Positions 4,423-62,409 of a stretch of DNA of 64,000 nucleotides are shown one piece after another. The first letter of the stretch is position 1, and every line of letters starts with the position of its first letter. The DNA comes from Escherichia phage dhabil: sequence record MN850621.1; one strand, 5' to 3'. Position numbers and translations under genes: made by a program. The notes under the pieces are model-generated. The model saw only the letters and a list, made by a program, of their open reading frames with translations, searched no databases and was not told the origin of the DNA.

Positions 4423-4480
4423 TTCATTTCCTTTATAGACGAGTGATTGTCTTTTGTTTGTTGATGAATCATTATACTCC

Positions 4481-4503
4481 AAAAAAGGGACCGAAGTCCC
4501 TTT
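4481..4503 (-). terminator. intrinsic terminator (TTCG loop) upstream of gene 43 leader
   Basis: Minus GGGAC-TTCG-GTCCC followed by TTTTTT; then GGAGTATAAT and gene 43 SD. Confidence 0.6.
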
Positions 4504-4505
4504 GC

Positions 4506-4721
4506 TTAAATTTCTATTGTCAAACGTTTAATAGTCGGATTGCCATCTTCGCCTTTAGTTCTAATCATAGCCTGGAAGACTTGCTGACCTGGATGTAGTA
4601 ACTTATGGAGGTCCTTTTGAAATTCTATTTGGAGCTCTTCGGAAAGGTCAAAAACAGTTTGAGTTGGTGAAAGCCCGTACACCTCTTTAAGACGTTCACA
4701 CATTTCAATTTCAAGAATCAT
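4506..4721 (-). CDS. hypothetical small protein between regA and gene 43
   Basis: In-frame ATG (MILEIEM...) just after regA stop; 71 aa; start uncertain. Confidence 0.3.
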   Translation of the reverse strand: MILEIEMCERLKEVYGLSPTQTVFDLSEELQIEFQKDLHKLLHPGQQVFQAMIRTKGEDGNPTIKRLTIEI

Positions 4722-4722
4722 A

Positions 4723-5085
4723 TTAATTACCAATGGTATACTTAGACAATAGTTCCCAGTCATTTTTCTGTTTAAAGGAAATGACACGGAAATTATTAGT
4801 AATTTCGAACAATTCAGAATCGTCTACAATATCAATAAGTCCCCAATCCTTAAGAAGCTGGGCGATAGAATCGCGGCGTTGGTAGTCTTCACCATCGATA
4901 TCTACCTGGCGACCGTCCATACGCAACATCTCTTTAAAGTGGACAATATAATACCGTCCTTGCTTTTGCAAAATGTGGCAGGATTGATATAGTTTCTTTT
5001 CTTTATTATTAGCGATACCCATACGAGTCAGGGTCTCTTTCACTTTTAGGAAGTCTTCAGGTTGCTTCAGAGTAATTTCAATCAT
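4723..5085 (-). CDS. regA: translational repressor RegA
   Basis: 120 aa, MIEITLKQPEDFLKVKETLTRMGIANN... closely resembles T4 RegA; sits between gene 62 and gene 43 as in T4. Confidence 0.93.
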   Translation of the reverse strand: MIEITLKQPEDFLKVKETLTRMGIANNKEKKLYQSCHILQKQGRYYIVHFKEMLRMDGRQVDIDGEDYQRRDSIAQLLKDWGLIDIVDDSELFEITNNFRVISFKQKNDWELLSKYTIGN

Positions 5086-6675: not shown

Positions 6676-7374
6676 TTAGAACGAGTGGCTTGAGCCTGCT
6701 TCCATAGCTAATACATAAGAAGCTTGTGTACCTTCAAACTTAGCTGCAAATCGAGCATCCTGACCTTCACCACGAGCCCATAGCAATACATGATAATCGG
6801 CTGGCATCATTTTCATATTGGTTTTGTTAATGATGAACTTAAAGTCAGGACCGTCATGATCGGCTACTACCAAAGAATACAGTGGACGAGTTAATTCTTT
6901 ATCGTCGACTTGTTTATAACCGTTGATAACAATTTTACCATCGTCTACAGTGATTGCAAATGTATCAATACTCAGACCAGAGGACACACGCATCAACTGT
7001 TGATAATCTTCGGCTTTCAGGTCGAAAATAACTTCAGCCACAGGGAACGGGATAGCTTTACTTGGGAATGCGATTGTGCTTGGGTCAGCAATAGGCCACT
7101 TAATTGTTGAACGTTGGTCTTTAATAATTAATGTGGTTTGGTCTTCACTTACCGAAACTTCAGCACTTTCTGATACCAAAGACAGAATACTTAAGAAGCC
7201 ATTCAAATCATAGATTGCTGCTTCGATATCGAAGGTATCACTTACAGTAGCTTCACCATAACTTGCACCGGTAACAGATCGGGTCAGAATGGTGTTACCT
7301 GGTTTAAGCATAATGCCCGGGTTAATACCAGAGAAGTTTTTAAGAATGTTCAGGGTTTCTTTAGAGAATTTCAT
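6676..7374 (-). CDS. 45: sliding clamp gp45
   Basis: 232 aa; T4 gp45-like sequence and size; upstream of 44/62. Confidence 0.93.
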   Translation of the reverse strand: MKFSKETLNILKNFSGINPGIMLKPGNTILTRSVTGASYGEATVSDTFDIEAAIYDLNGFLSILSLVSESAEVSVSEDQTTLIIKDQRSTIKWPIADPSTIAFPSKAIPFPVAEVIFDLKAEDYQQLMRVSSGLSIDTFAITVDDGKIVINGYKQVDDKELTRPLYSLVVADHDGPDFKFIINKTNMKMMPADYHVLLWARGEGQDARFAAKFEGTQASYVLAMEAGSSHSF

Positions 7375-7396
7375 AATGTTTCCTTATCAAGTCAAA

Positions 7397-7816
7397 TTAA
7401 GCAATTACGATCATTTGTTTACGGATTGATTCAGGCAGAGATTCAATATACTCTGGAATCTGGGAAGCAACCATAGCACCGGCTTCAAGCAACTGCTCAT
7501 CAGGGTCGACGCAATAATCATCTTCTAAACGTTCAGAACCGTCGCGGTCGATAACAAGTTTAGCACCTGCGGCCAGTGAATCATTATAATGGCGACGCAT
7601 GATTTCTACCCACTTATCAGATACGTCGTTATCAATAATACCGTAGAGCATGAACTTAGTTTCTTGTGGAAGAGACTGCAGTCGACGGGCAGAGTTGGTA
7701 TCAATATTCAGCACCCATGATTTACGGATACGGTTCTGATTATGCGGGTTGGAATCAGTACGGATGGTTTTAACTTGGATATCTTTAACTGTAACGCCAT
7801 TAGAAGTAGCAAACAT
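7397..7816 (-). CDS. hypothetical protein at T4 rpbA position
   Basis: ORF between gene 45 and gene 46; start set to internal ATG (MFATSNG...); track ORF begins at an upstream TTG. Confidence 0.45.
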   Translation of the reverse strand: MFATSNGVTVKDIQVKTIRTDSNPHNQNRIRKSWVLNIDTNSARRLQSLPQETKFMLYGIIDNDVSDKWVEIMRRHYNDSLAAGAKLVIDRDGSERLEDDYCVDPDEQLLEAGAMVASQIPEYIESLPESIRKQMIVIA

Positions 7817-12235: not shown

Positions 12236-12776
12236 ATAAAAAATCCAGCTCACCAACTTTAGATTCGGCGCTCTTATCAGACCCTGGCGCTTTAACTAAA
12301 GAGGTTTCATACTGAGTCATTTTGTCGTAAATATCCTGGATAAAAGTTTCATCTGCGATACCTACCATGTCGTCGTCATTAGCGTCATAAACGTTATGGA
12401 CGAAGTAGCTGTATTTCTTTGCCATTTCTTTGCGTTCTTTCTTGATACGCTGAACAAAGGCATTAAAACAAGCCATAGTGATATATGCATGTGGGTTGTC
12501 GTATTTTGTTTCGTCGAAGTTGTGAAGACCTTTAATAGAAGCTTCGATTCCATCAGCAATCATTTCTTGCTTCCAAGATTGGGTATACCCGGAGAAGTTG
12601 AAACGCTTAGAAAGGCCTTCAGCAATGAGCATAATAGCCAAGCCGATAACATCGTTCTGACGAACTATTTTATTAGGATCGGTATTTTCTCGGAGCTCTG
12701 TTTTCCACTGGGTAATGGCTTTCAGAAGCTCCTTATTATTTACATAGTTATTTTTAGTCAGTTTAATTTCGGTCAT
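12219..12776 (-). CDS. 55: late-transcription sigma factor gp55
   Basis: 185 aa; sequence (…[52 protein letters not shown]…) closely resembles T4 gp55. Confidence 0.95.
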
Positions 12777-12799
12777 TGTTACCTCAGATAACTCAAATC

Positions 12800-12840
12800 A
12801 TAGGTCTATTATATCATAGTATTTGAAGACCCGTTTAAAG
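12800..12840 (-). promoter_or_regulatory. promoter-like element upstream of gene 55
   Basis: Minus strand TATAAT followed by cassette core AGACCTAT; -35 unclear. Confidence 0.4.
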
Positions 12841-12842
12841 CA

Positions 12843-13106
12843 TCAACGGAGTAAGCAATAAGCCTGAAATACTGTTTCAAGAATTTTTTTGAACTCTTCG
12901 AAGGAAGGGGCTCCTTCAAATCCTTGGCTTTGAATATAAAGGCAGAATTGTTGGTAAAGGACTAAATATTCGGATTGGTTGTATTTGGAAATATGAGACT
13001 TCCACACTTCAGAAGTCTCTCCGCAAATAAACTCAACATTCATATAGTTATCTATTAAGAAAAATCCTAAGCCTTCATAAGCCAATGTTATGGATACAGG
13101 CGTCAT
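12843..13106 (-). CDS. hypothetical protein
   Basis: 87 aa ORF with ATG start. Confidence 0.45.
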   Translation of the reverse strand: MTPVSITLAYEGLGFFLIDNYMNVEFICGETSEVWKSHISKYNQSEYLVLYQQFCLYIQSQGFEGAPSFEEFKKILETVFQAYCLLR

Positions 13107-26889: not shown

Positions 26890-27276
26890 TTATTCTAACG
26901 TTAACAAATACTTAGTCTGGTAAAAGACACCAGTGATGTCGTCCAAAGTCGATTGGATGGCCTTAGGAAGATTTTTGTAGATTTTATCAGACGCTTTAAT
27001 AAGTTCATCAAGAAAATCTATGGGGTCTTTAGGCAGTTCTGAAGCAGACGGTAGTGATGCTTTATATTCTTTGCCACTAAATCCTAAATACTGTTCACTG
27101 AACTGGTCTAGTGGTCCTTGAACTTCTGTATAATAGAAGTCATATGCTTTGTGTCTTGCATAGCTTTTGGTTTCCAAATGGGCTGACTTAAAATAGGCTA
27201 AAGAAACCAACAGCCAGCCAATATAAGAATCTACTTCAGTCCCTCGACTAAGTACGAAATCATTGAATTTCATCAT
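26890..27276 (-). CDS. hypothetical protein
   Basis: 128 aa ORF. Confidence 0.45.
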   Translation of the reverse strand: MMKFNDFVLSRGTEVDSYIGWLLVSLAYFKSAHLETKSYARHKAYDFYYTEVQGPLDQFSEQYLGFSGKEYKASLPSASELPKDPIDFLDELIKASDKIYKNLPKAIQSTLDDITGVFYQTKYLLTLE

Positions 27277-27553
27277 CTACCTTCATTAGTTTAGCGTATC
27301 GTTCTCCGATAGCCCGACCTTCAATCGAGCAAGACTCTATTGTATTGCAATTTGAAATTTTCCAAGAAGCAGTTACATAAGCCCAGTAGTCTTCGGAAGC
27401 CTTTACACTAGGTTTACTCATTTGCGCATAAACTGGCATCGCACTACTAGCAAAGGCATCCATCAATTTAGGGTCGGATTTGTTTGCTAGTGAAGATGTC
27501 GGGCTTAAACATCCAATCATAAGGATACAAGCCACTGTACGGAAAATACCCAT
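27260..27553 (-). CDS. putative lipoprotein
   Basis: Signal peptide with lipobox MIGC. Confidence 0.45.
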   Translation of the reverse strand: MGIFRTVACILMIGCLSPTSSLANKSDPKLMDAFASSAMPVYAQMSKPSVKASEDYWAYVTASWKISNCNTIESCSIEGRAIGERYAKLMKVDDEIQ

Positions 27554-27646: not shown

Positions 27647-27925
27647 TTATAGCTTTTTAAGCTTACGACAATAAGAATAGAACACGTCGTTAAAATTATA
27701 TTCAACCCAATTCCTCTGTATAGGCGAGGTAATGGAAAGCATATAATGCGCTTTAATTAAATCCATTCCATTTTTATTAGGACATTCTTTATTATTAGCA
27801 TTATACGTCGCTGCTACAACTTCTATCTCTCTTTTGTAAGCCACATCATCCATGATGGGCGAAAGAACAATATAAGAGATGGCCACAGCGAACGCTAGAA
27901 TTAAAATCTTTGAATTTAGGTCCAT
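27647..27925 (-). CDS. signal-anchored periplasmic protein, rI-like by position
   Basis: N-terminal hydrophobic anchor, Cys-containing; adjacent to tk as rI is in T4. Confidence 0.35.
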   Translation of the reverse strand: MDLNSKILILAFAVAISYIVLSPIMDDVAYKREIEVVAATYNANNKECPNKNGMDLIKAHYMLSITSPIQRNWVEYNFNDVFYSYCRKLKKL

Positions 27926-27932
27926 AGTACCC

Positions 27933-28505
27933 TCAACTCGTTATTTCTATCCAGTGCTTCCTGCACAATGACACGTAAGAATCGTTGCCACCTATAGAAA
28001 CTTGGGCTCCGTCCTTAATTGCGATACCATCTTGGACCCTAGCAGTCATAGTAGCTTTACGGCCGCAATGGCACACACCTTTGTACTCAACGAGTTTATC
28101 TGCTGTAGCGAGTAATTCAGCAGAACCAGGAAACAGTTTACCCTGAAAATCAGTTCTTAGCCCATAGCACATAACTGGAACATTATAATTGTCTACTATC
28201 TTTGCCAGTTGTTTTATCTGTGCAGGTTCTAAGAACTGTGCTTCATCCACAAACACACAGTGGATATCTTTTTGAGATTCAGCCCAACGATAGAACTCGT
28301 ATAGGTCCATATCCGGAGTCACTGCATTAGCCTCTTGACTAATCCCTATACGAGACGAAATGGTATGGCTTGATTCTCTATTGTCTATCGCAGGCTTTAA
28401 AAGGAGCACGCCCATACCACGTTCTTTGTAGTTATGAGCCGCTGTTAGCAATGAAGCGGTCTTACCTGAGTTCATTGCCGCATAGTGAAAATAAAGTTGA
28501 GCCAT
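27933..28505 (-). CDS. tk: thymidine kinase
   Basis: 190 aa; P-loop AAMNSGKT, CHCG zinc motif; closely resembles T4 Tk. Confidence 0.95.
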   Translation of the reverse strand: MAQLYFHYAAMNSGKTASLLTAAHNYKERGMGVLLLKPAIDNRESSHTISSRIGISQEANAVTPDMDLYEFYRWAESQKDIHCVFVDEAQFLEPAQIKQLAKIVDNYNVPVMCYGLRTDFQGKLFPGSAELLATADKLVEYKGVCHCGRKATMTARVQDGIAIKDGAQVSIGGNDSYVSLCRKHWIEITS

Positions 28506-28514
28506 ATTACCTTC

Positions 28515-28700
28515 TTAAAGACTATTCACATAAGCAATTAATTCGTTTTCTTTCGCATCAAATCTATTAGCAAATTCTTCCTGATGTTCGGCATCTATTG
28601 GGCCGTATTCATCGTAAAAAGCGTTTGCTTCTGTATGCTCATCCAAAAGCTCATGGATAAGCTCAAACAATCTACTTTTCTGACTAATACTTAAACTCAT
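28515..28700 (-). CDS. hypothetical protein
   Basis: 61 aa ORF. Confidence 0.35.
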   Translation of the reverse strand: MSLSISQKSRLFELIHELLDEHTEANAFYDEYGPIDAEHQEEFANRFDAKENELIAYVNSL

Positions 28701-28903
28701 TTAGGTTCACCATATCGCACAAATTTAGGATGTTCGCAATAACCAGAATGAAAACCTTCACCCTTATGATTAGAGCAGCCTTTATTAGAGCAATACCACC
28801 AGTAATCATATTCGCAATTCATTTCATCGTTGCATAAAGCTGCGATTACAGGCCATTCACATTTTTCACATTTGGCCGTTTTAAGAATTCGCACTTGACT
28901 CAT
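28697..28903 (-). CDS. Cys-rich small protein
   Basis: 68 aa with CEKCEW…CSNKGC…C pattern. Confidence 0.4.
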   Translation of the reverse strand: MSQVRILKTAKCEKCEWPVIAALCNDEMNCEYDYWWYCSNKGCSNHKGEGFHSGYCEHPKFVRYGEPK

Positions 28904-29354
28904 AATCCACCACTATTAAATCAATATCAGGAGTAAACATGTCGATTAATTTAGAAACCTTGTCCCAATCACCACCAGCAATACCACAACCTATGCGCGG
29001 AATATAAATTCTTGGTTTAAACAAAAGGTCATTTGCTTGTAGATTTAATTCTATCATACAGTTTACTAAAGCACCGTAATCAAGATTAGGGCCTGGTTCG
29101 TATTGGGTGTACAAATTATAACACATACCAAACCCAGTAGGCTTATGTTTAAAAACAATAGACATGTCACCTAATTTATCACGAGAACCATATTCAGTAG
29201 TGGTCTTATCAATTTCTAATATTTTAGGATAGGCCCTTGCTAATTGACCAGCCACCCCTGAACCCATAGTATGAAAACAGTTGCACCCGTGTGCAATAAT
29301 ATTACCTTGAAGAAACAGGGCGACGATATCGCCCTTAATATAATCAATAATCAT
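28881..29354 (-). CDS. macrodomain protein (ADP-ribose binding/processing)
   Basis: GDIV…HGCNC…GSGVAGQ…IGCGIAGGDW matches macrodomain signature blocks. Confidence 0.6.
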   Translation of the reverse strand: MIIDYIKGDIVALFLQGNIIAHGCNCFHTMGSGVAGQLARAYPKILEIDKTTTEYGSRDKLGDMSIVFKHKPTGFGMCYNLYTQYEPGPNLDYGALVNCMIELNLQANDLLFKPRIYIPRIGCGIAGGDWDKVSKLIDMFTPDIDLIVVDYESSANS

Positions 29355-29707
29355 TTAGAGTTTAGCCCTCGGTTGTAAGAGTCAACGAGTCTGTCTACCA
29401 TAGACGCGCACATTTCTTTGTACTTTTTATCAGACGGAACACATTCAGTAACGTTTAGACGTTGCTCGTATCTTTTAGAAAGAGTTTTCTCTTTCATTCG
29501 GCGATGCTCGACGTCGTTCTGTCCATCTTTAAAAGCAGCTGTTATTTTTGAACTGAATTCAATAACGCATTCAGTATTACTCGGATGACAATAATCTTTT
29601 GCTGTACGGGTGGCATACTCGACAATTGAATTATTTGTATCATCAACCTGTGATGCTAATACTCCCGGAGCAATCAACATAAGCGCTATAGTCATCTGTT
29701 TAATCAT
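29351..29707 (-). CDS. secreted protein
   Basis: 118 aa with N-terminal signal peptide (ALMLIAPGVLAS). Confidence 0.45.
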   Translation of the reverse strand: MIKQMTIALMLIAPGVLASQVDDTNNSIVEYATRTAKDYCHPSNTECVIEFSSKITAAFKDGQNDVEHRRMKEKTLSKRYEQRLNVTECVPSDKKYKEMCASMVDRLVDSYNRGLNSK

Positions 29708-30247
29708 TTAATATACCGCCTCAAACATCTTTTTAGATTTTAGGTAATTGGCCTTTTCTAGAACTTCGGAAGCATATTTACTGCCTGCTTTGACATTCCA
29801 GCCCGCATTATAAGAAGCAATCGCTTTTCTCAGGTCACCTTTGTGAACATCAATCCAATAAGACAGCTCAATGTAGGCCCAAGAGGCACTGTTCTGTCGT
29901 TTTTGGACCATGCGAATTATTTCTTTGTCTGACATCTTCCAACCTACCTGTTGAACACGACTTCTTAACGTAGGCAAGTAATTTTGGAACATGCCATAAG
30001 CATGGTGCTTATCTTTATTTAAACCTTGATTAATTCCAGCAGATGATTCCTGCCATAATAATCCGGCCATTATATATCCTAATCCTTTTTGATTAGGGTT
30101 TTCTTTGAACTTTCCCGACTTTTGGTATTGTTCACCGAAAGCATACGCATAATGTAAATTATCGAGTTGTTCATTACTGAAAGTAGGCTCTACGCTATAG
30201 GCAGACATACTAACTGTCAATAGTAAAGTGGCTAATACTTTTTTCAT
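29708..30247 (-). CDS. secreted lytic transglycosylase-like protein (SLT domain)
   Basis: Signal peptide; WQESS…AYGMFQ…SYNAG fits the SLT catalytic E-S…G-L-M-Q…A-Y-N-A-G pattern. Confidence 0.5.
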   Translation of the reverse strand: MKKVLATLLLTVSMSAYSVEPTFSNEQLDNLHYAYAFGEQYQKSGKFKENPNQKGLGYIMAGLLWQESSAGINQGLNKDKHHAYGMFQNYLPTLRSRVQQVGWKMSDKEIIRMVQKRQNSASWAYIELSYWIDVHKGDLRKAIASYNAGWNVKAGSKYASEVLEKANYLKSKKMFEAVY

Positions 30248-30259
30248 GAGACCTCATTA

Positions 30260-30718
30260 TTAAAGATAGATTACTTTCGTGCTGGTTTTACCTTCTAAAC
30301 GTTTAGAATTAACAAATGCCATACGACATTTTAATGAATATCCTTTATCAGGATGTTTACGATCTACGGTCATACCCAACCATAAGGTTTTATCGGTAAT
30401 CTCGAGACGCAGTGGACGATACACTTTACCTGGGACAATTTCAGATTCTATGTCAGGAAGAGGCTCCTGGATTAAAAATTCATGGATTTCTTTAACATGA
30501 TTGTGGAGCTTCTTGAACAAAGAGAAAACATATTTTTCGTCAATTTCACGTTGGATAGCACGGTCCAACAAGTGATTAGAGTACTTAATAAAGAAAGCTG
30601 GGACACCGCTCTTAATGGCGGCTTTTTTGATGGACGCGTTAAGTTCACGAAATTCGGTTTCGAACTGACGACGTAATTTGTTGCGGCGGATGAATACTTC
30701 TGAATTAATTTCTGACAT
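30260..30718 (-). CDS. regB: endoribonuclease RegB
   Basis: 152 aa; EVFIRRNKLRRQFETEFR…HLLDRAIQREIDE closely resembles T4 RegB. Confidence 0.92.
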   Translation of the reverse strand: MSEINSEVFIRRNKLRRQFETEFRELNASIKKAAIKSGVPAFFIKYSNHLLDRAIQREIDEKYVFSLFKKLHNHVKEIHEFLIQEPLPDIESEIVPGKVYRPLRLEITDKTLWLGMTVDRKHPDKGYSLKCRMAFVNSKRLEGKTSTKVIYL

Positions 30719-30726
30719 TTTGTAAT

Positions 30727-30775
30727 CTCCTGTAGTTGATAGGTCTATAGTACCACGTCTACAGGAGATGTAAAC
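30727..30775 (-). promoter_or_regulatory. early promoter cassette upstream of regB
   Basis: GTTTAC -35; core flanked by perfect inverted repeat CTCCTGTAG/CTACAGGAG. Confidence 0.65.
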
Positions 30776-30780
30776 TGCTT

Positions 30781-31059
30781 TTAGTATTTTTCCTCAGGTT
30801 GGAAAACGGAACGACAGGCCCACATGGATGCTTCTTTCAAGCGTTCGATTGCCGTACGAATCTGGGCGAGGCGTTCATGAGTAAGGTCGAATTCTTCATC
30901 ACTCATTTTATCAACACCGGAGCATGTAAAGGCTTCAACATATTCTTCTTCTAATGCTTTAAAGATTAAGCCCAATCGAACTTCAGCATCTTTAATGGCA
31001 TTCACTTTACCGATTTTATCGTCGGTATGTGGCTTGTAACCTTTGATGTCTTCAATCAT
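30781..31059 (-). CDS. hypothetical protein
   Basis: 92 aa ORF. Confidence 0.45.
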   Translation of the reverse strand: MIEDIKGYKPHTDDKIGKVNAIKDAEVRLGLIFKALEEEYVEAFTCSGVDKMSDEEFDLTHERLAQIRTAIERLKEASMWACRSVFQPEEKY

Positions 31060-31274
31060 TTCACTTCCTCGCCAGTTGCGATATCATATTCCACCAAACG
31101 AAGGCCTTCAGTCCAACCTTGCACGGAGATATAAGTAGTTGGGTAAACCACTTCTTTACCATTCCACTGACCACCGTCCCAGACTTCCAGAAAGTCTTGT
31201 TCACCCGGCCCATTAAACCATTCAACAAATCTCTTCAGAGCTTCATCAGAGCCTTCAATTGTCAATTTAGACAT
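31056..31274 (-). CDS. hypothetical protein
   Basis: 72 aa ORF. Confidence 0.4.
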   Translation of the reverse strand: MSKLTIEGSDEALKRFVEWFNGPGEQDFLEVWDGGQWNGKEVVYPTTYISVQGWTEGLRLVEYDIATGEEVK

Positions 31275-31563
31275 ATTTTTTCCAGTCAGAAATCATATGA
31301 ATCTCTTGGTCATACGTCAAGAGACTGCGAGTAATAATACCCTTACACGGCCCAGAGATGAACTCGAGAGTGAAGTAAGGAACCTGTTTCATTAATCGGA
31401 TGCTTGGGGCGTGGCATCTAAAACGAGAGCCCTTAAAGGGCCCTGACATGAATACATATTCTAATGGATAGAAATAAGCATATTCGAAATTTGTAGTAAG
31501 GTCCTCTCTTCGAACCTTACGTGAGAAATAACAGAACTCAAAAAGCTCTTCATCAGTCATCAT
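31267..31563 (-). CDS. hypothetical protein
   Basis: 98 aa ORF. Confidence 0.45.
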   Translation of the reverse strand: MMTDEELFEFCYFSRKVRREDLTTNFEYAYFYPLEYVFMSGPFKGSRFRCHAPSIRLMKQVPYFTLEFISGPCKGIITRSLLTYDQEIHMISDWKKYV

Positions 31564-60877: not shown

Positions 60878-62409
60878 TGTCTACAAATACACTAAAACAT
60901 ATAAGTGATAAATCGGAATTTAAAACATTCGACCCTACCGGGTCGAATTTTGACCCTAGTATTACCAACGTCCAAGACGCCTTATCATCCATTTCTGCTA
61001 TAGGTGTTACAGGTAATATTCCGGCCGCATCCGAAACAGAACAGGGTATTATTAGATTAGCCACCCAACAAGAAGTTATTGATGGCACTGATACTTTCTC
61101 TGCTGTGACCCCGGCTACTTTAAAAGGCCGCTTGGACATTCCTACTCAAGCAACTGAAACCTATGTAGGTATCACACGTTATGCTACTAATGATGAGGCC
61201 ATCGCTGGGACAGAGACCCAGGCTGCAATCGTAGCATCATCTTTGAAGGCTACTATAGATTATACATTCACCAATCGTTTAGCCACAGAGAACACTACAG
61301 GTGTACTCAAGATTTCAACCTTGCCAGCGGCTTTAGCGGGTACAGATGATACTACGGCTATGACGCCTCTTAAAACCGCACAGGCAATTGGAGCCGCTAC
61401 ATCGGCCTTACCAACTTATGCAAGTGCAACACAAACTACTGAAGGTATTGTTAGAATCGCGACAAATGCCGAAGTGGCAAATGGCACATTGACTAATGGC
61501 GTCGCAATTTCTCCATCAGGGCTTATTTCTTTAACTTCTAATACTTCTCGACGTGGACTGGTTCAATTAGCCACTGGAGCTGAAGTTTCGGCCGGAATTG
61601 ATGCAAATAAAGCTATTACGCCTCAAACCCTTTTGTCAAGAACGGGTAATACCGGTAGAATAGGCCTTCTTAAAACCACAACTACCGTGGGTTCTGGCGA
61701 TGGAAGTACAGCATTGGCATATAATGCTAACGTTATTTCTACCACCGGTGGTACTATTAATGGTACTTTAAACGTTAATGGTACTTTACGTCGTAATGGG
61801 CGTGATGTTGTTACTGTCGACCAATTAAAAGATTCTGTTCCTATTGGTACTATCGTTATGTGGGGAGGCCAAATTAACAATATCCCTGCAGGTTGGGCCG
61901 TTTGTGATGGTGGTAACTCTGGTGAGCAAGGATTCCGAAACGTAGTTGGTAGTAAATGGGGCTCAACTGGTGCTCGTCCTGACTTCCGTGGATTATATCC
62001 TAGAGGTGCAAACCAAACTAATGACGGTGGATTAAAAGAATGGGACGCCAACGTTAGAATTAGAGACGCCAAAGGTAACGACGCCAAAGGCAAACCAAAA
62101 TTAGGTGTAGGTTGTGGTTCATATGGACACGGTACAGTACAAGCTCAACAACTTCGGTTCCATAAACATGCAGGTGGTTTTGGTGAACATGATAACGCAG
62201 GTGCTTTTGGTAACACTGTTCGTTCCAACTTTGCCGGTACTCGTAAAGGATTAGACTGGGATAACCGTTCTTACTTTACAAACGAAGGATACGAAATTGA
62301 CGGTTCCGGTTCACGAGATTCAAGAACTACCCTAAACAGTGAAGGGTTAATTGGTAACGAAAACCGTCCTTGGACTATGTCCATCCTATTCATTATTAAA
62401 GTTGCTTAA
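60877..62409 (+). CDS. 12: short tail fibre gp12
   Basis: 510 aa; Thr/Ala/Gly-rich fibrous repeats; size and position of T4 gp12. Confidence 0.88.
   Translation: MSTNTLKHISDKSEFKTFDPTGSNFDPSITNVQDALSSISAIGVTGNIPAASETEQGIIRLATQQEVIDGTDTFSAVTPATLKGRLDIPTQATETYVGITRYATNDEAIAGTETQAAIVASSLKATIDYTFTNRLATENTTGVLKISTLPAALAGTDDTTAMTPLKTAQAIGAATSALPTYASATQTTEGIVRIATNAEVANGTLTNGVAISPSGLISLTSNTSRRGLVQLATGAEVSAGIDANKAITPQTLLSRTGNTGRIGLLKTTTTVGSGDGSTALAYNANVISTTGGTINGTLNVNGTLRRNGRDVVTVDQLKDSVPIGTIVMWGGQINNIPAGWAVCDGGNSGEQGFRNVVGSKWGSTGARPDFRGLYPRGANQTNDGGLKEWDANVRIRDAKGNDAKGKPKLGVGCGSYGHGTVQAQQLRFHKHAGGFGEHDNAGAFGNTVRSNFAGTRKGLDWDNRSYFTNEGYEIDGSGSRDSRTTLNSEGLIGNENRPWTMSILFIIKVA

What the first reader, a model, noticed from the sequence alone, without database searches (positions are those of the whole stretch)
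28881..29354. Macrodomain protein next to thymidine kinase
The 157-aa protein has the macrodomain blocks (GDIV…HGCNC…GSGVAGQ … IGCGIAGGDW), which bind or hydrolyse ADP-ribose derivatives. I do not recall a macrodomain at this position in T4. A phage macrodomain could reverse host ADP-ribosylation of DNA or proteins, or degrade ADP-ribose-derived signals.
Basis: partly seen in the sequence, partly recalled or inferred. Interest (0 to 1): 0.5.

Follow-up and report, generated by a model that had tools for sequence, protein, structure and literature searches.

The report
T4 tk.4/adfM macrodomain ortholog
This is the Dhakavirus copy of the well-known T-even phage gene tk.4 (recently renamed adfM), a small macrodomain enzyme that in T4 protects the phage from the bacterial DarTG2 defence, so the gene is real but ordinary and already described.

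Summary
The ORF is real: 28881-29354, minus strand, 157 aa. It is a confident macrodomain (Pfam Macro above threshold; AlphaFold pLDDT 94.7; best folds TARG1, Poa1p, DarG, BT1257, SCO6735). The window is 99.7% identical to Escherichia phage CLB_P2 (Dhakavirus), whose GenBank record already calls this gene "macro domain protein".

T4 tk.4 sits at the same position (tk-tk.1/2/3-tk.4-vs-regB) and is 57% identical over the full length. A 2025 preprint showed that T4 tk.4 is needed to resist DarTG2 and renamed it adfM.

What I add:
- The family is not a captured DarG. It scores 28 bits on DarG models against 133-138 for PhiKZ "AdfM", and has no C-terminal DarT-binding domain.
- It has an invariant Gln (Q84) where DarG and TARG1 have the catalytic Lys, as in SCO6735, a proven thymidine-ADPr DNA hydrolase. 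It lacks SCO6735's long lysine loop.
- tk.4 alleles have been swapped between T-even genera: RB6 is 98-100% T4-like in flanking proteins but 92-94% window-like in tk.4.

Verdict: already known, low interest.

The parts
28881..29354 (-). tk.4 / adfM ortholog: 157-aa single-domain ALC1-like (TARG1/DarG/SCO6735 class) macrodomain protein
   Evidence: ORF; Pfam Macro 32.1 bits, above GA 22; 57% identical to T4 Tk.4 and 94% to RB6 Tk.4; AF2 pLDDT 94.7; Foldseek hits TARG1, Poa1p, DarG, BT1257, SCO6735; annotated 'macro domain protein' in CLB_P2.
29250..29291 (-). Catalytic/substrate loop HGCNCFHTMGSGVA (res 22-35). H22, G23, N25, C26, G33 and A35 are invariant in the family. H22 = SCO6735 His24; N25 = SCO6735 Asn27 (stated in the paper to be conserved in DarG homologues).
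   Evidence: Translation; conservation 79/79; residue mapping to SCO6735; roles of those residues.
29103..29117 (-). NLYTQ strand end (res 80-84). Invariant Q84 occupies the position of the catalytic Lys of TARG1 (K84) and DarG (K80) and of the essential Gln85 of SCO6735.
   Evidence: Profile alignment to TARG1; alignment to SCO6735; Q 79/79; SCO6735 Q85A is inactive.
28965..29000 (-). Diphosphate-binding loop PRIGCGIAGGDW (res 119-130). G124 = SCO6735 Gly128. A126 sits where TARG1 has the catalytic Asp125.
29351..29354 (-). ATGA overlap: the vs stop codon (TGA) overlaps the tk.4 start codon (ATG), which suggests translational coupling. T4 has the same 4-nt overlap.
   Evidence: Sequence; T4 coordinates vs 61386-61733 and tk.4 60922-61389.
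29351..29707 (-). Context: vs (valyl-tRNA synthetase modifier) ortholog, immediately upstream in the same transcription direction
   Evidence: 46% identical to T4 Vs; annotation in related phages.
28697..28903 (-). Context: downstream 68-aa phage zinc-binding protein in the tk.3 slot. Its start overlaps the tk.4 3' end by 23 nt.
   Evidence: Pfam PF23895, E=5e-29; coordinates.
27933..28505 (-). Context: thymidine kinase (tk)
   Evidence: Pfam TK, E=5.5e-57; 70% identical to T4 Tk.

Best explanation
The gene is the Dhakavirus ortholog of T4 tk.4, now called adfM (anti-DarT factor, macrodomain). It encodes a free-standing, single-domain macrodomain of the ALC1-like class. The gene order suggests it is co-transcribed with regB-vs.1-vs. 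Its most likely job is to counter the host toxin-antitoxin defence DarTG2. The DarT2 toxin ADP-ribosylates thymidines in single-stranded DNA and so blocks replication. The phage macrodomain binds the ADP-ribose moiety and hydrolyses the thymidine-ribose bond, restoring a replicable template. The chemistry is probably of the SCO6735 type and Lys-independent: invariant Gln84, locked by Asn25, positions the distal ribose and a water network. It is probably not the DarG/TARG1 lysine mechanism. Shown here: identity, fold, orthology, synteny and active-site residues. Shown by others, for the T4 ortholog only: the anti-DarTG2 phenotype. Inferred: that this 57%-identical allele does the same, and that it acts by hydrolysis.
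For: Orthology: same slot as T4 tk.4 (rI-tk-...-tk.4-vs-vs.1-regB); 57% identity over 152 aa, E=1e-68; same ATGA junction with vs. Function of the ortholog: T4 tk.4 was the single significant hit on a DarTG2 host, and a clean knockout is DarTG2-sensitive. This is consistent with an earlier report that T4 lacking adfA and adfN remains DarTG2-resistant. Fold and class: pLDDT 94.7; top PDB folds TARG1, Poa1p, DarG, BT1257, SCO6735; the family profile hits BT1257 at 5e-19, TARG1 at 4e-17, SCO6735 at 1.4e-15 and DarG at 3e-12. Active site: H22, G23, N25, Q84 and G124 are invariant in 79/79 homologs. They map to SCO6735 His24, Asn27, Gln85 and Gly128. SCO6735 has been shown biochemically to cleave thymidine-linked ADP-ribose from DNA and to rescue cells from DarT, and its Q85A mutant is inactive. 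A separate phage macrodomain, PhiKZ gp104, removes DarT2-installed ADP-ribose from DNA in vitro and is needed against DarTG2. This shows the strategy works for phages.
Against: There is no experiment on this allele or on any Dhakavirus. For T4 the evidence is genetic only and comes from a preprint, with no catalytic mutant or in vitro assay. The protein is only a distant relative of DarG: 28 bits on the PADLOC DarG model and 27.6 bits on NCBIfam NF048014, whose cutoff is 250. It lacks features the SCO6735 paper ties to DNA activity: the 5-residue-longer mobile loop with Lys89/Lys93, Lys34 (S32 here; Ala in most of the family) and Val25 (invariant Gly here). The window-type and T4-type alleles differ at 43% of positions and have been exchanged between genera. 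They may therefore differ in specificity.
Confidence: 0.7

Rival explanations
1. It counters DarT2 mainly by binding and blocking the toxin (a stoichiometric antitoxin mimic), not by hydrolysing ADP-ribosylated DNA.
For: Catalytically dead SCO6735 (Q85A), DarG (K80A) and TARG1 (K84A) all inhibit DarT activity in vitro, with SCO6735 the strongest. The ICP1 factor AdfB counters DarT by direct binding. The T4 data do not separate the two modes.
Against: The protein has no counterpart of the DarG C-terminal DarT-binding domain; it matches only positions 1-147 of the 338-position DarG model. The strict invariance of active-site residues H22, N25, Q84 and G124 across homologs down to about 39% identity is what is expected for an enzyme. 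PhiKZ AdfM N23A loses activity.
Confidence: 0.1
2. Its main substrate is not DarT2-modified DNA. It could be ADP-ribosylated protein or RNA, either from other host ART toxins or defences or as a way to tune the phage's own Alt/ModA/ModB modifications. The window-type allele could also be specialised for a different transferase than the E. coli DarT2 tested with T4.
For: SCO6735 and TARG1 also de-modify Glu/Asp-linked proteins. The family lacks the lysine-rich DNA-clamping loop of SCO6735, and the SCO6735 K89 mutant was better on protein. There are two or more allele classes at 55-58% identity, swapped between genera, which is typical of arms-race genes whose targets vary.
Against: In T4, tk.4 was a specific hit for DarTG2. 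T4 Alt, ModA and ModB modify arginine, a linkage for which no hydrolysis is described for the ALC1-like macrodomains in the papers read here. Active-site residues are identical between the two alleles.
Confidence: 0.12
3. It is a housekeeping small-molecule enzyme, as the historical annotation 'A1pp phosphatase' implies: a Poa1p-like ADP-ribose-1''-phosphate phosphatase or an O-acetyl-ADP-ribose deacetylase.
For: T4 RefSeq note 'contains A1pp phosphatase motif'. PHROG 335 is labelled 'phosphatase'. Yeast Poa1p is among the best PDB matches (phmmer 1e-9; Foldseek 5e-9) and shares the H-x-C-N-C motif (HSCNC versus HGCNC). TARG1 cleaves O-acetyl-ADP-ribose.
Against: The position equivalent to Poa1p Ser30, which was probed by mutation in PDB 6LFT, is Thr in only 46 of 79 family members and is otherwise V/L/M/Q. 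The Poa1p alignment breaks down after residue ~80-96. In the papers read, ADP-ribose-1''-phosphate comes from Tpt1-type tRNA splicing, and nothing found here links T-even infection to that pathway. The 'phosphatase' label is a domain-name transfer, not an assay. The knockout phenotype in T4 is defence-specific.
Confidence: 0.06

Closest known systems
Phage T4 Tk.4 = AdfM (NP_049723; HIDEN-SEQ preprint, bioRxiv 10.1101/2025.11.20.689424)
   Same: Ortholog. Same genomic slot between tk.3 and vs, with the same ATGA overlap with vs. 57% identity over the full length. Identical catalytic-loop and NLYTQ motifs.
   Different: 43% of residues differ. The diphosphate loop is PRIGCGIAGGDW here (the family consensus) versus PRIGAGIGKGNW in T4. 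The window allele belongs to a second allele class, shared with about 250 Tequatroviruses such as RB6. That class has not been tested against DarTG2.
Streptomyces coelicolor SCO6735 (PDB 5E3B), a thymidine-ADPr DNA hydrolase
   Same: ALC1-like macrodomain and free-standing single-domain protein. Has Gln in place of the catalytic Lys (Q85 = Q84), with conserved His24 = H22, Asn27 = N25 and Gly128 = G124.
   Different: The window protein lacks the 5-residue-longer 'mobile loop' with Lys89/Lys93. It has Gly instead of Val25 and Ser (Ala in most of the family) instead of Lys34. Identity is only about 26%. SCO6735 is a cellular DNA-damage-induced gene; this is a phage early-region gene.
DarG antitoxin macrodomain (T. 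aquaticus 5M31/5M3E, M. tuberculosis 5M3I; NCBIfam NF048014)
   Same: Same fold class (Foldseek E about 1e-8, TM about 0.73). Same expected substrate, thymidine-ADPr on ssDNA. It is the natural antagonist of the same toxin.
   Different: Gln84 instead of catalytic Lys80. No C-terminal DarT-binding domain. No adjacent darT gene. Scores 27.6 bits against a 250-bit cutoff. It is therefore not a recently captured DarG.
PhiKZ gp104 'AdfM' (Morgan et al., Cell Rep 2026, PMC13309987)
   Same: Phage-encoded orphan macrodomain that defeats DarTG2. Its hydrolysis of thymidine-ADPr DNA has been shown in vitro.
   Different: Not orthologous: BLASTP E=8e-4 over 33 aa, hhalign probability 96%. PhiKZ gp104 is genuinely DarG-like (133-138 bits on DarG models, N23/K78 active site). 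The shared name AdfM covers two different macrodomain subfamilies.
Human TARG1/OARD1 (PDB 4J5R), yeast Poa1p (6LFQ) and Bacteroides BT1257 (2FG1)
   Same: Best structural and sequence matches in the PDB. BT1257 also has Gln at the catalytic position. Poa1p shares the HxCNC motif.
   Different: The TARG1 Lys84/Asp125 dyad is replaced by Q84/A126. BT1257 has the long loop. The Poa1p Ser30 position is not conserved in the phage family.

Membership tests
Macro domain superfamily (Pfam PF01661) | Score above the Pfam gathering threshold over the whole domain | tested here: met
   32.1 bits against GA 22, model positions 2-117 of 118.
Macro domain superfamily (Pfam PF01661) | Macrodomain alpha/beta/alpha fold | tested here: met
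   AF2 pLDDT 94.7. All top Foldseek PDB hits are macrodomains, with 162 hits at E<=1e-3.
ALC1-like (TARG1/DarG/SCO6735/Poa1p) macrodomain class | Closest solved relatives, by sequence and by fold, belong to this class rather than to the MacroD, PARG or viral nsP3 classes | tested here: met
   phmmer and profile: BT1257, TARG1, SCO6735, Poa1p and DarG at 1e-10 to 5e-19, against coronavirus and alphavirus macrodomains at 2e-3 or weaker. Foldseek ranks 1-25 are this class.
T4 Tk.4 / AdfM orthologous group | Full-length sequence similarity to T4 Tk.4 | tested here: met
   57% identity over 152/157 aa, no gaps, E=1e-68.
T4 Tk.4 / AdfM orthologous group | Conserved position between tk.3 and vs in the rI-tk-vs-regB early cluster | tested here: met
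   Window gene order against T4 NC_000866. JS98, JS10 and IME08 annotate the gene as tk.4.
T4 Tk.4 / AdfM orthologous group | Required for phage growth on a DarTG2-expressing host | not testable with these tools
   Shown for T4 only. Needs a knockout in this phage.
DarG antitoxin (NCBIfam NF048014 / PADLOC DarG) | HMM score at equivalog level | tested here: not met
   27.6 bits against a cutoff of 250. 28.1 bits on PADLOC DarG, where PhiKZ gp104 scores 132.9.
DarG antitoxin (NCBIfam NF048014 / PADLOC DarG) | Catalytic lysine (T. aquaticus Lys80) | tested here: not met
   Gln84 occupies the equivalent position and is Gln in 79/79 family members.
DarG antitoxin (NCBIfam NF048014 / PADLOC DarG) | C-terminal DarT-binding domain and an adjacent darT toxin gene | tested here: not met
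   The 157-aa protein matches only model positions 1-147 of 338. Its neighbours are vs and a zinc-binding protein.
SCO6735 subclass of ALC1-like macrodomains | Gln at the catalytic-Lys position, with conserved Asn27 and Gly128 | tested here: met
   Q84, N25 and G124 align to Gln85, Asn27 and Gly128 and are invariant in the family.
SCO6735 subclass of ALC1-like macrodomains | Mobile loop five residues longer than in DarG/TARG1, carrying Lys89/Lys93 (stated to be characteristic of the subclass) | tested here: not met
   A 5-residue gap in the window protein opposite SCO6735 HGMKTGSKG. The loop is 8 residues in 56/79 family members and has no Lys in the window protein. Paper statement.
SCO6735 subclass of ALC1-like macrodomains | Val25 (or Ile), described as SCO6735-specific, and Lys34, needed for DNA activity | tested here: not met
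   G23 in 79/79; S32 in the window, with A/S/G across the family. The proposed role of Val25 is through its backbone oxygen, so Gly may still serve.
TARG1/OARD1 | Lys84/Asp125 catalytic dyad | tested here: not met
   The profile alignment puts Q84 opposite K84 and A126 opposite D125.
Poa1p-like ADP-ribose-1''-phosphate phosphatase | Conservation of the residues probed in Poa1p structures (His23, Ser30) | tested here: inconclusive
   H22 aligns to His23 and is invariant. T29 aligns to Ser30 but is Thr in only 46/79 members. The alignment to Poa1p is poor beyond about residue 96. Enzyme activity was not testable.

The most novel reading that the evidence does not exclude
The T-even Tk.4 family may be a third mechanistic subclass of DNA-de-ADP-ribosylating macrodomains. 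It combines the SCO6735-type Gln/Asn active site with a short DarG/TARG1-type loop, an invariant Gly at the SCO6735 Val25 position and no active-site lysine. Its divergent allele classes (T4-type, window/RB6-type and a class near 81% nucleotide identity), which have been shuffled between genera, may have different specificities. They could match different DarT2 variants or other ADP-ribosylating defences acting on DNA, RNA or protein. If so, the window allele would not be functionally interchangeable with T4 AdfM.
Probability: 0.2. Interest if true: 0.45.

Novelty: already known. Interest (0 to 1): 0.18.

Why it matters
As a discovery it matters little. The gene has been in the T4 annotation since the genome was curated. 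It is already labelled a macro domain protein in this very phage's GenBank record. Its biological role in T4 (anti-DarTG2, adfM) was reported in 2025.

Three points have some value for follow-up:
- The name AdfM now covers two non-orthologous proteins with different active sites: Gln-type Tk.4 and Lys-type PhiKZ gp104.
- tk.4 alleles are exchanged among T-even genera. This marks the locus as an arms-race hotspot and suggests simple allele-swap experiments to map DarT2 specificity.

Tried and rejected
- Novelty relative to T4: rejected. T4 has tk.4 in the same slot.
- 'Captured DarG antitoxin': rejected. DarG HMM scores are 28-36 bits for Tk.4 proteins against 133-138 for PhiKZ gp104. The Lys80 equivalent, the C-terminal domain and an adjacent darT gene are all missing.
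- TARG1-type Lys/Asp chemistry: rejected.
- Full membership of the SCO6735 subclass: rejected because the long loop, Val25 and Lys34 are missing.
- Promoter and terminator scan of 27800-31300: 10 promoter-like sites against 10.9 expected from shuffles, so uninformative. The only plausible site, a TTTACA-16-TACTAT match upstream of regB at 30774-30747, was not pursued.
- PDB search with the middle fragment alone (res 61-119): no hits.
- To see the SCO6735 alignment I used a chimeric query, window residues 1-112 plus SCO6735's own C-terminal segment. Only the non-chimeric part was interpreted, and the E-value of that call (49) is meaningless.
- Literature search for 'AdfM' alone was swamped by unrelated strings (88,411 papers).
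- Three paper calls failed on term syntax.
- I did not run the large representative-protein search, a second homolog search or the metagenome scans. The answer did not depend on them.

Full report
**1.
An ATG-initiated ORF occupies exactly 28881..29354 on the minus strand and encodes 157 aa.
- Pfam Macro (PF01661) matches at 32.1 bits against a gathering score of 22, across essentially the whole model.
- PHROG 335 ('phosphatase') matches at E=1.2e-70.
- An AlphaFold2 model built on a 79-sequence alignment is confident: mean pLDDT 94.7, pTM 0.89.
- Its best PDB matches by Foldseek are TARG1, Poa1p, DarG, BT1257 and SCO6735, at E=4e-10 to 4e-7 and TM about 0.7-0.8.

Thymidine kinase (27933..28505, minus strand) is two small genes away.

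**2. Where the window comes from, and the T4 question.**
The surrounding 3 kb is 99.7% identical to Escherichia phage CLB_P2 (Straboviridae, Tevenvirinae, Dhakavirus) and 97% identical to JS98 and JS10. In CLB_P2 the gene is already annotated 'macro domain protein'. In JS98, JS10, IME08 and Bp7 it is named tk.4.

That is incorrect.
- T4 RefSeq has tk.4 (NP_049723, 'phosphatase; Tk.4; contains A1pp phosphatase motif') in the same slot: rI, rI.1, tk, tk.1, tk.2, tk.3, tk.4, vs, vs.1, regB.
- The window's order is rI antiholin, a 92-aa ORF, tk, DUF7438, a zinc-binding protein, the macrodomain gene, vs, vs.1, regB.
- The two proteins align end to end without gaps at 57% identity, E=1e-68.
- Both genes share a 4-nt ATGA overlap with the stop codon of vs.

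The family is very widespread: tblastn finds it in 2,754 of 50,697 phage records.

**3. What is already known about function.**
- The HIDEN-SEQ preprint (bioRxiv 10.1101/2025.11.20.689424) infected a DarTG2-expressing host with a T4 transposon library. It found tk.4 as the single significant hit, showed that a clean knockout makes T4 DarTG2-sensitive, and renamed the gene adfM. That evidence is genetic only. Enzymatic removal of ADP-ribose from DNA is described as 'likely'.
- Independently, Morgan et al. (PMC13309987) named PhiKZ gp104 'AdfM'. They showed in vitro that it removes DarT2-installed ADP-ribose from a thymidine-modified oligonucleotide, and that deletion mutants become DarTG2-sensitive.

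**4. How it most likely works, and what I can add.**

The Tk.4 family is not a recently captured DarG.
- On the PADLOC DarG model and NCBIfam NF048014, the window protein scores 28.1 and 27.6 bits and T4 Tk.4 scores 36 and 30.3 bits.
- PhiKZ gp104 scores 132.9 and 137.8 bits. The NCBIfam cutoff is 250.
- All three match only the macrodomain part of the model (the first ~145-148 of 329/338 positions).
- The window protein and PhiKZ gp104 are barely alignable: BLASTP E=8e-4 over 33 residues, hhalign probability 96%.

The active site differs from DarG and TARG1.
- In a family-profile alignment, the invariant Gln (window Q84, in NLYTQ) lies opposite TARG1 Lys84, and A126 lies opposite TARG1 Asp125.
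- The SCO6735 paper (PMC9411070) states that SCO6735 Gln85 is the structural equivalent of TARG1 Lys84 and DarG Lys80, and that Q85A is inactive. It also reports that Asn27 locks Gln85 and that G128E impairs activity. The enzyme cleaves thymidine-linked ADP-ribose from DNA and protects cells from DarT.
- A direct alignment gives H22 = His24, G23 = Val25, N25 = Asn27, S32 = Lys34, Q84 = Gln85 and G124 = Gly128.
- Across 79 homologs down to about 39% identity, H22, G23, N25, C26, Q84, G122, G124 and W130 are conserved in 79/79.

I therefore infer a Lys-independent, SCO6735-like hydrolysis of dT-ADPr.

The match to SCO6735 is incomplete.
- The phage family has a short loop after the Gln: 8 residues in 56/79 members, against a loop 5 residues longer in SCO6735 and BT1257.
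- It has no Lys89/Lys93, and it has Gly for Val25 and Ala or Ser for Lys34.
- The paper links all of these features to DNA activity or treats them as subclass-specific.

How single-stranded DNA is gripped is therefore open.

**5. Rivals.**
- Toxin binding rather than hydrolysis. Dead SCO6735, DarG and TARG1 mutants inhibit DarT in vitro, and ICP1 AdfB acts by binding. Against this, there is no DarT-binding domain, and the strict conservation of the active site points to an enzyme.
- Other substrates, such as ADP-ribosylated protein or RNA, or other transferases. Class members are promiscuous and the alleles are diverse. Against this, the T4 phenotype is DarTG2-specific.
- The historical 'A1pp phosphatase' (Poa1p-like) reading. 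Poa1p is a good PDB match and shares HxCNC. However, the Ser30-equivalent position is not conserved, being Thr in 46/79 members. The label is a domain-name transfer rather than an assay.

**6. Allele exchange.**
- RB6 (Tequatrovirus) is 98-100% identical to T4 in the rI, tk, vs, vs.1 and regB proteins. Its Tk.4 is only 58% identical to T4's, but 92% (global alignment) to 94% (BLASTP) identical to the window's.
- The window's own flanking proteins are only 24-71% identical to either phage.
- At the nucleotide level, RB6 matches the window at 87.5% over 514 nt centred on tk.4, against about 69-71% in the flanks.
- Megablast finds the window-type allele in 305 phage genomes at 80% coverage or more. 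Only about 50 genomes share the 3-kb Dhakavirus context, so most carriers are Tequatroviruses such as RB6, ime09, phiD1, Sf22 and Kha5h.
- The T4-type allele is found at 95% identity or more in about 217 genomes, and a further class sits near 81%.

Such cassette-like replacement is typical of counter-defence loci, but its functional meaning is untested.

**7. Verdict.**
The functional interpretation is essentially right. The novelty premise is wrong. This is the known T-even gene tk.4/adfM. I rate it 'already known', with low interest (0.18). The residual open points are the enzymology of the Gln-type phage macrodomain, the specificity of the allele classes, and the double use of the name AdfM.

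Noticed in passing
L003 (RB6 KM606996) 2501-2980, compared with window 28881-29354 and L002 (T4) 4423-4890: tk.4 has been replaced allele-for-allele between T-even genera. RB6 is 98-100% T4-like in flanking proteins, but its Tk.4 is 58% identical to T4's and 92-94% identical to the Dhakavirus window's. About 305 genomes carry the window-type allele and about 217 the T4-type, with a third class near 81% nucleotide identity.
   Followed up: yes
window 28697-28903 (-): The tk.3 slot holds a 68-aa Cys-rich 'Phage zinc binding domain' protein (PF23895, E=5e-29). It is unrelated to T4 Tk.3 (only 9 residues alignable). Its start overlaps the tk.4 3' end by 23 nt.
   Followed up: partly
window 27647-27925 (-) and 27260-27553 (-): The rI.1 slot holds a 92-aa ORF with a hydrophobic N-terminus, no Pfam match and no real similarity to T4 rI.1. 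The rI antiholin itself is only 26% identical to T4 rI, although it matches Pfam Antiholin. The lysis-inhibition module is much more diverged than tk (70%).
   Followed up: no
window 29317-29335 (-), inside the 5' end of tk.4 (codons 7-13): An 8-bp stem (5 GC pairs), AGGGCGATATCGTCGCCCT, was flagged by the terminator scan about 20 nt after the start codon. It has no convincing T-tract. It may be chance or an mRNA structure near the coupled vs/tk.4 junction.
   Followed up: no
literature; L004 (PhiKZ) 12518-13006: Nomenclature collision. 'AdfM' is used for T4 Tk.4 (Gln-type, 28-36 bits on DarG models) and for PhiKZ gp104 (Lys-type, 133-138 bits). The two are not orthologs.
   Followed up: yes
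window 29351-29707 (-), vs: The gene translationally coupled upstream of tk.4 (vs, valyl-tRNA synthetase modifier) was the most strongly depleted T4 gene in minimal medium in the HIDEN-SEQ screen. In the CLB_P2 record this 118-aa protein is mislabelled 'valyl-tRNA synthetase', and RegB is labelled only 'endonuclease'.
   Followed up: no
L002 (T4 NC_000866) 1853-2035 and 7058-7420: Two RefSeq product names look odd. The 60-aa mobD.4 is called 'molybdopterin-guanine dinucleotide biosynthesis protein MobD', which is probably a name transfer from the gene symbol. vs.6 is called 'autonomous glycyl radical cofactor GrcA'.
   Followed up: no
window 30747-30774 (-): A promoter-like site (TTTACA, 16-nt spacer, TG, TACTAT) lies just upstream of regB. 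It could drive a regB-vs.1-vs-tk.4 transcript. Overall, the scan was not above the shuffled expectation.
   Followed up: no
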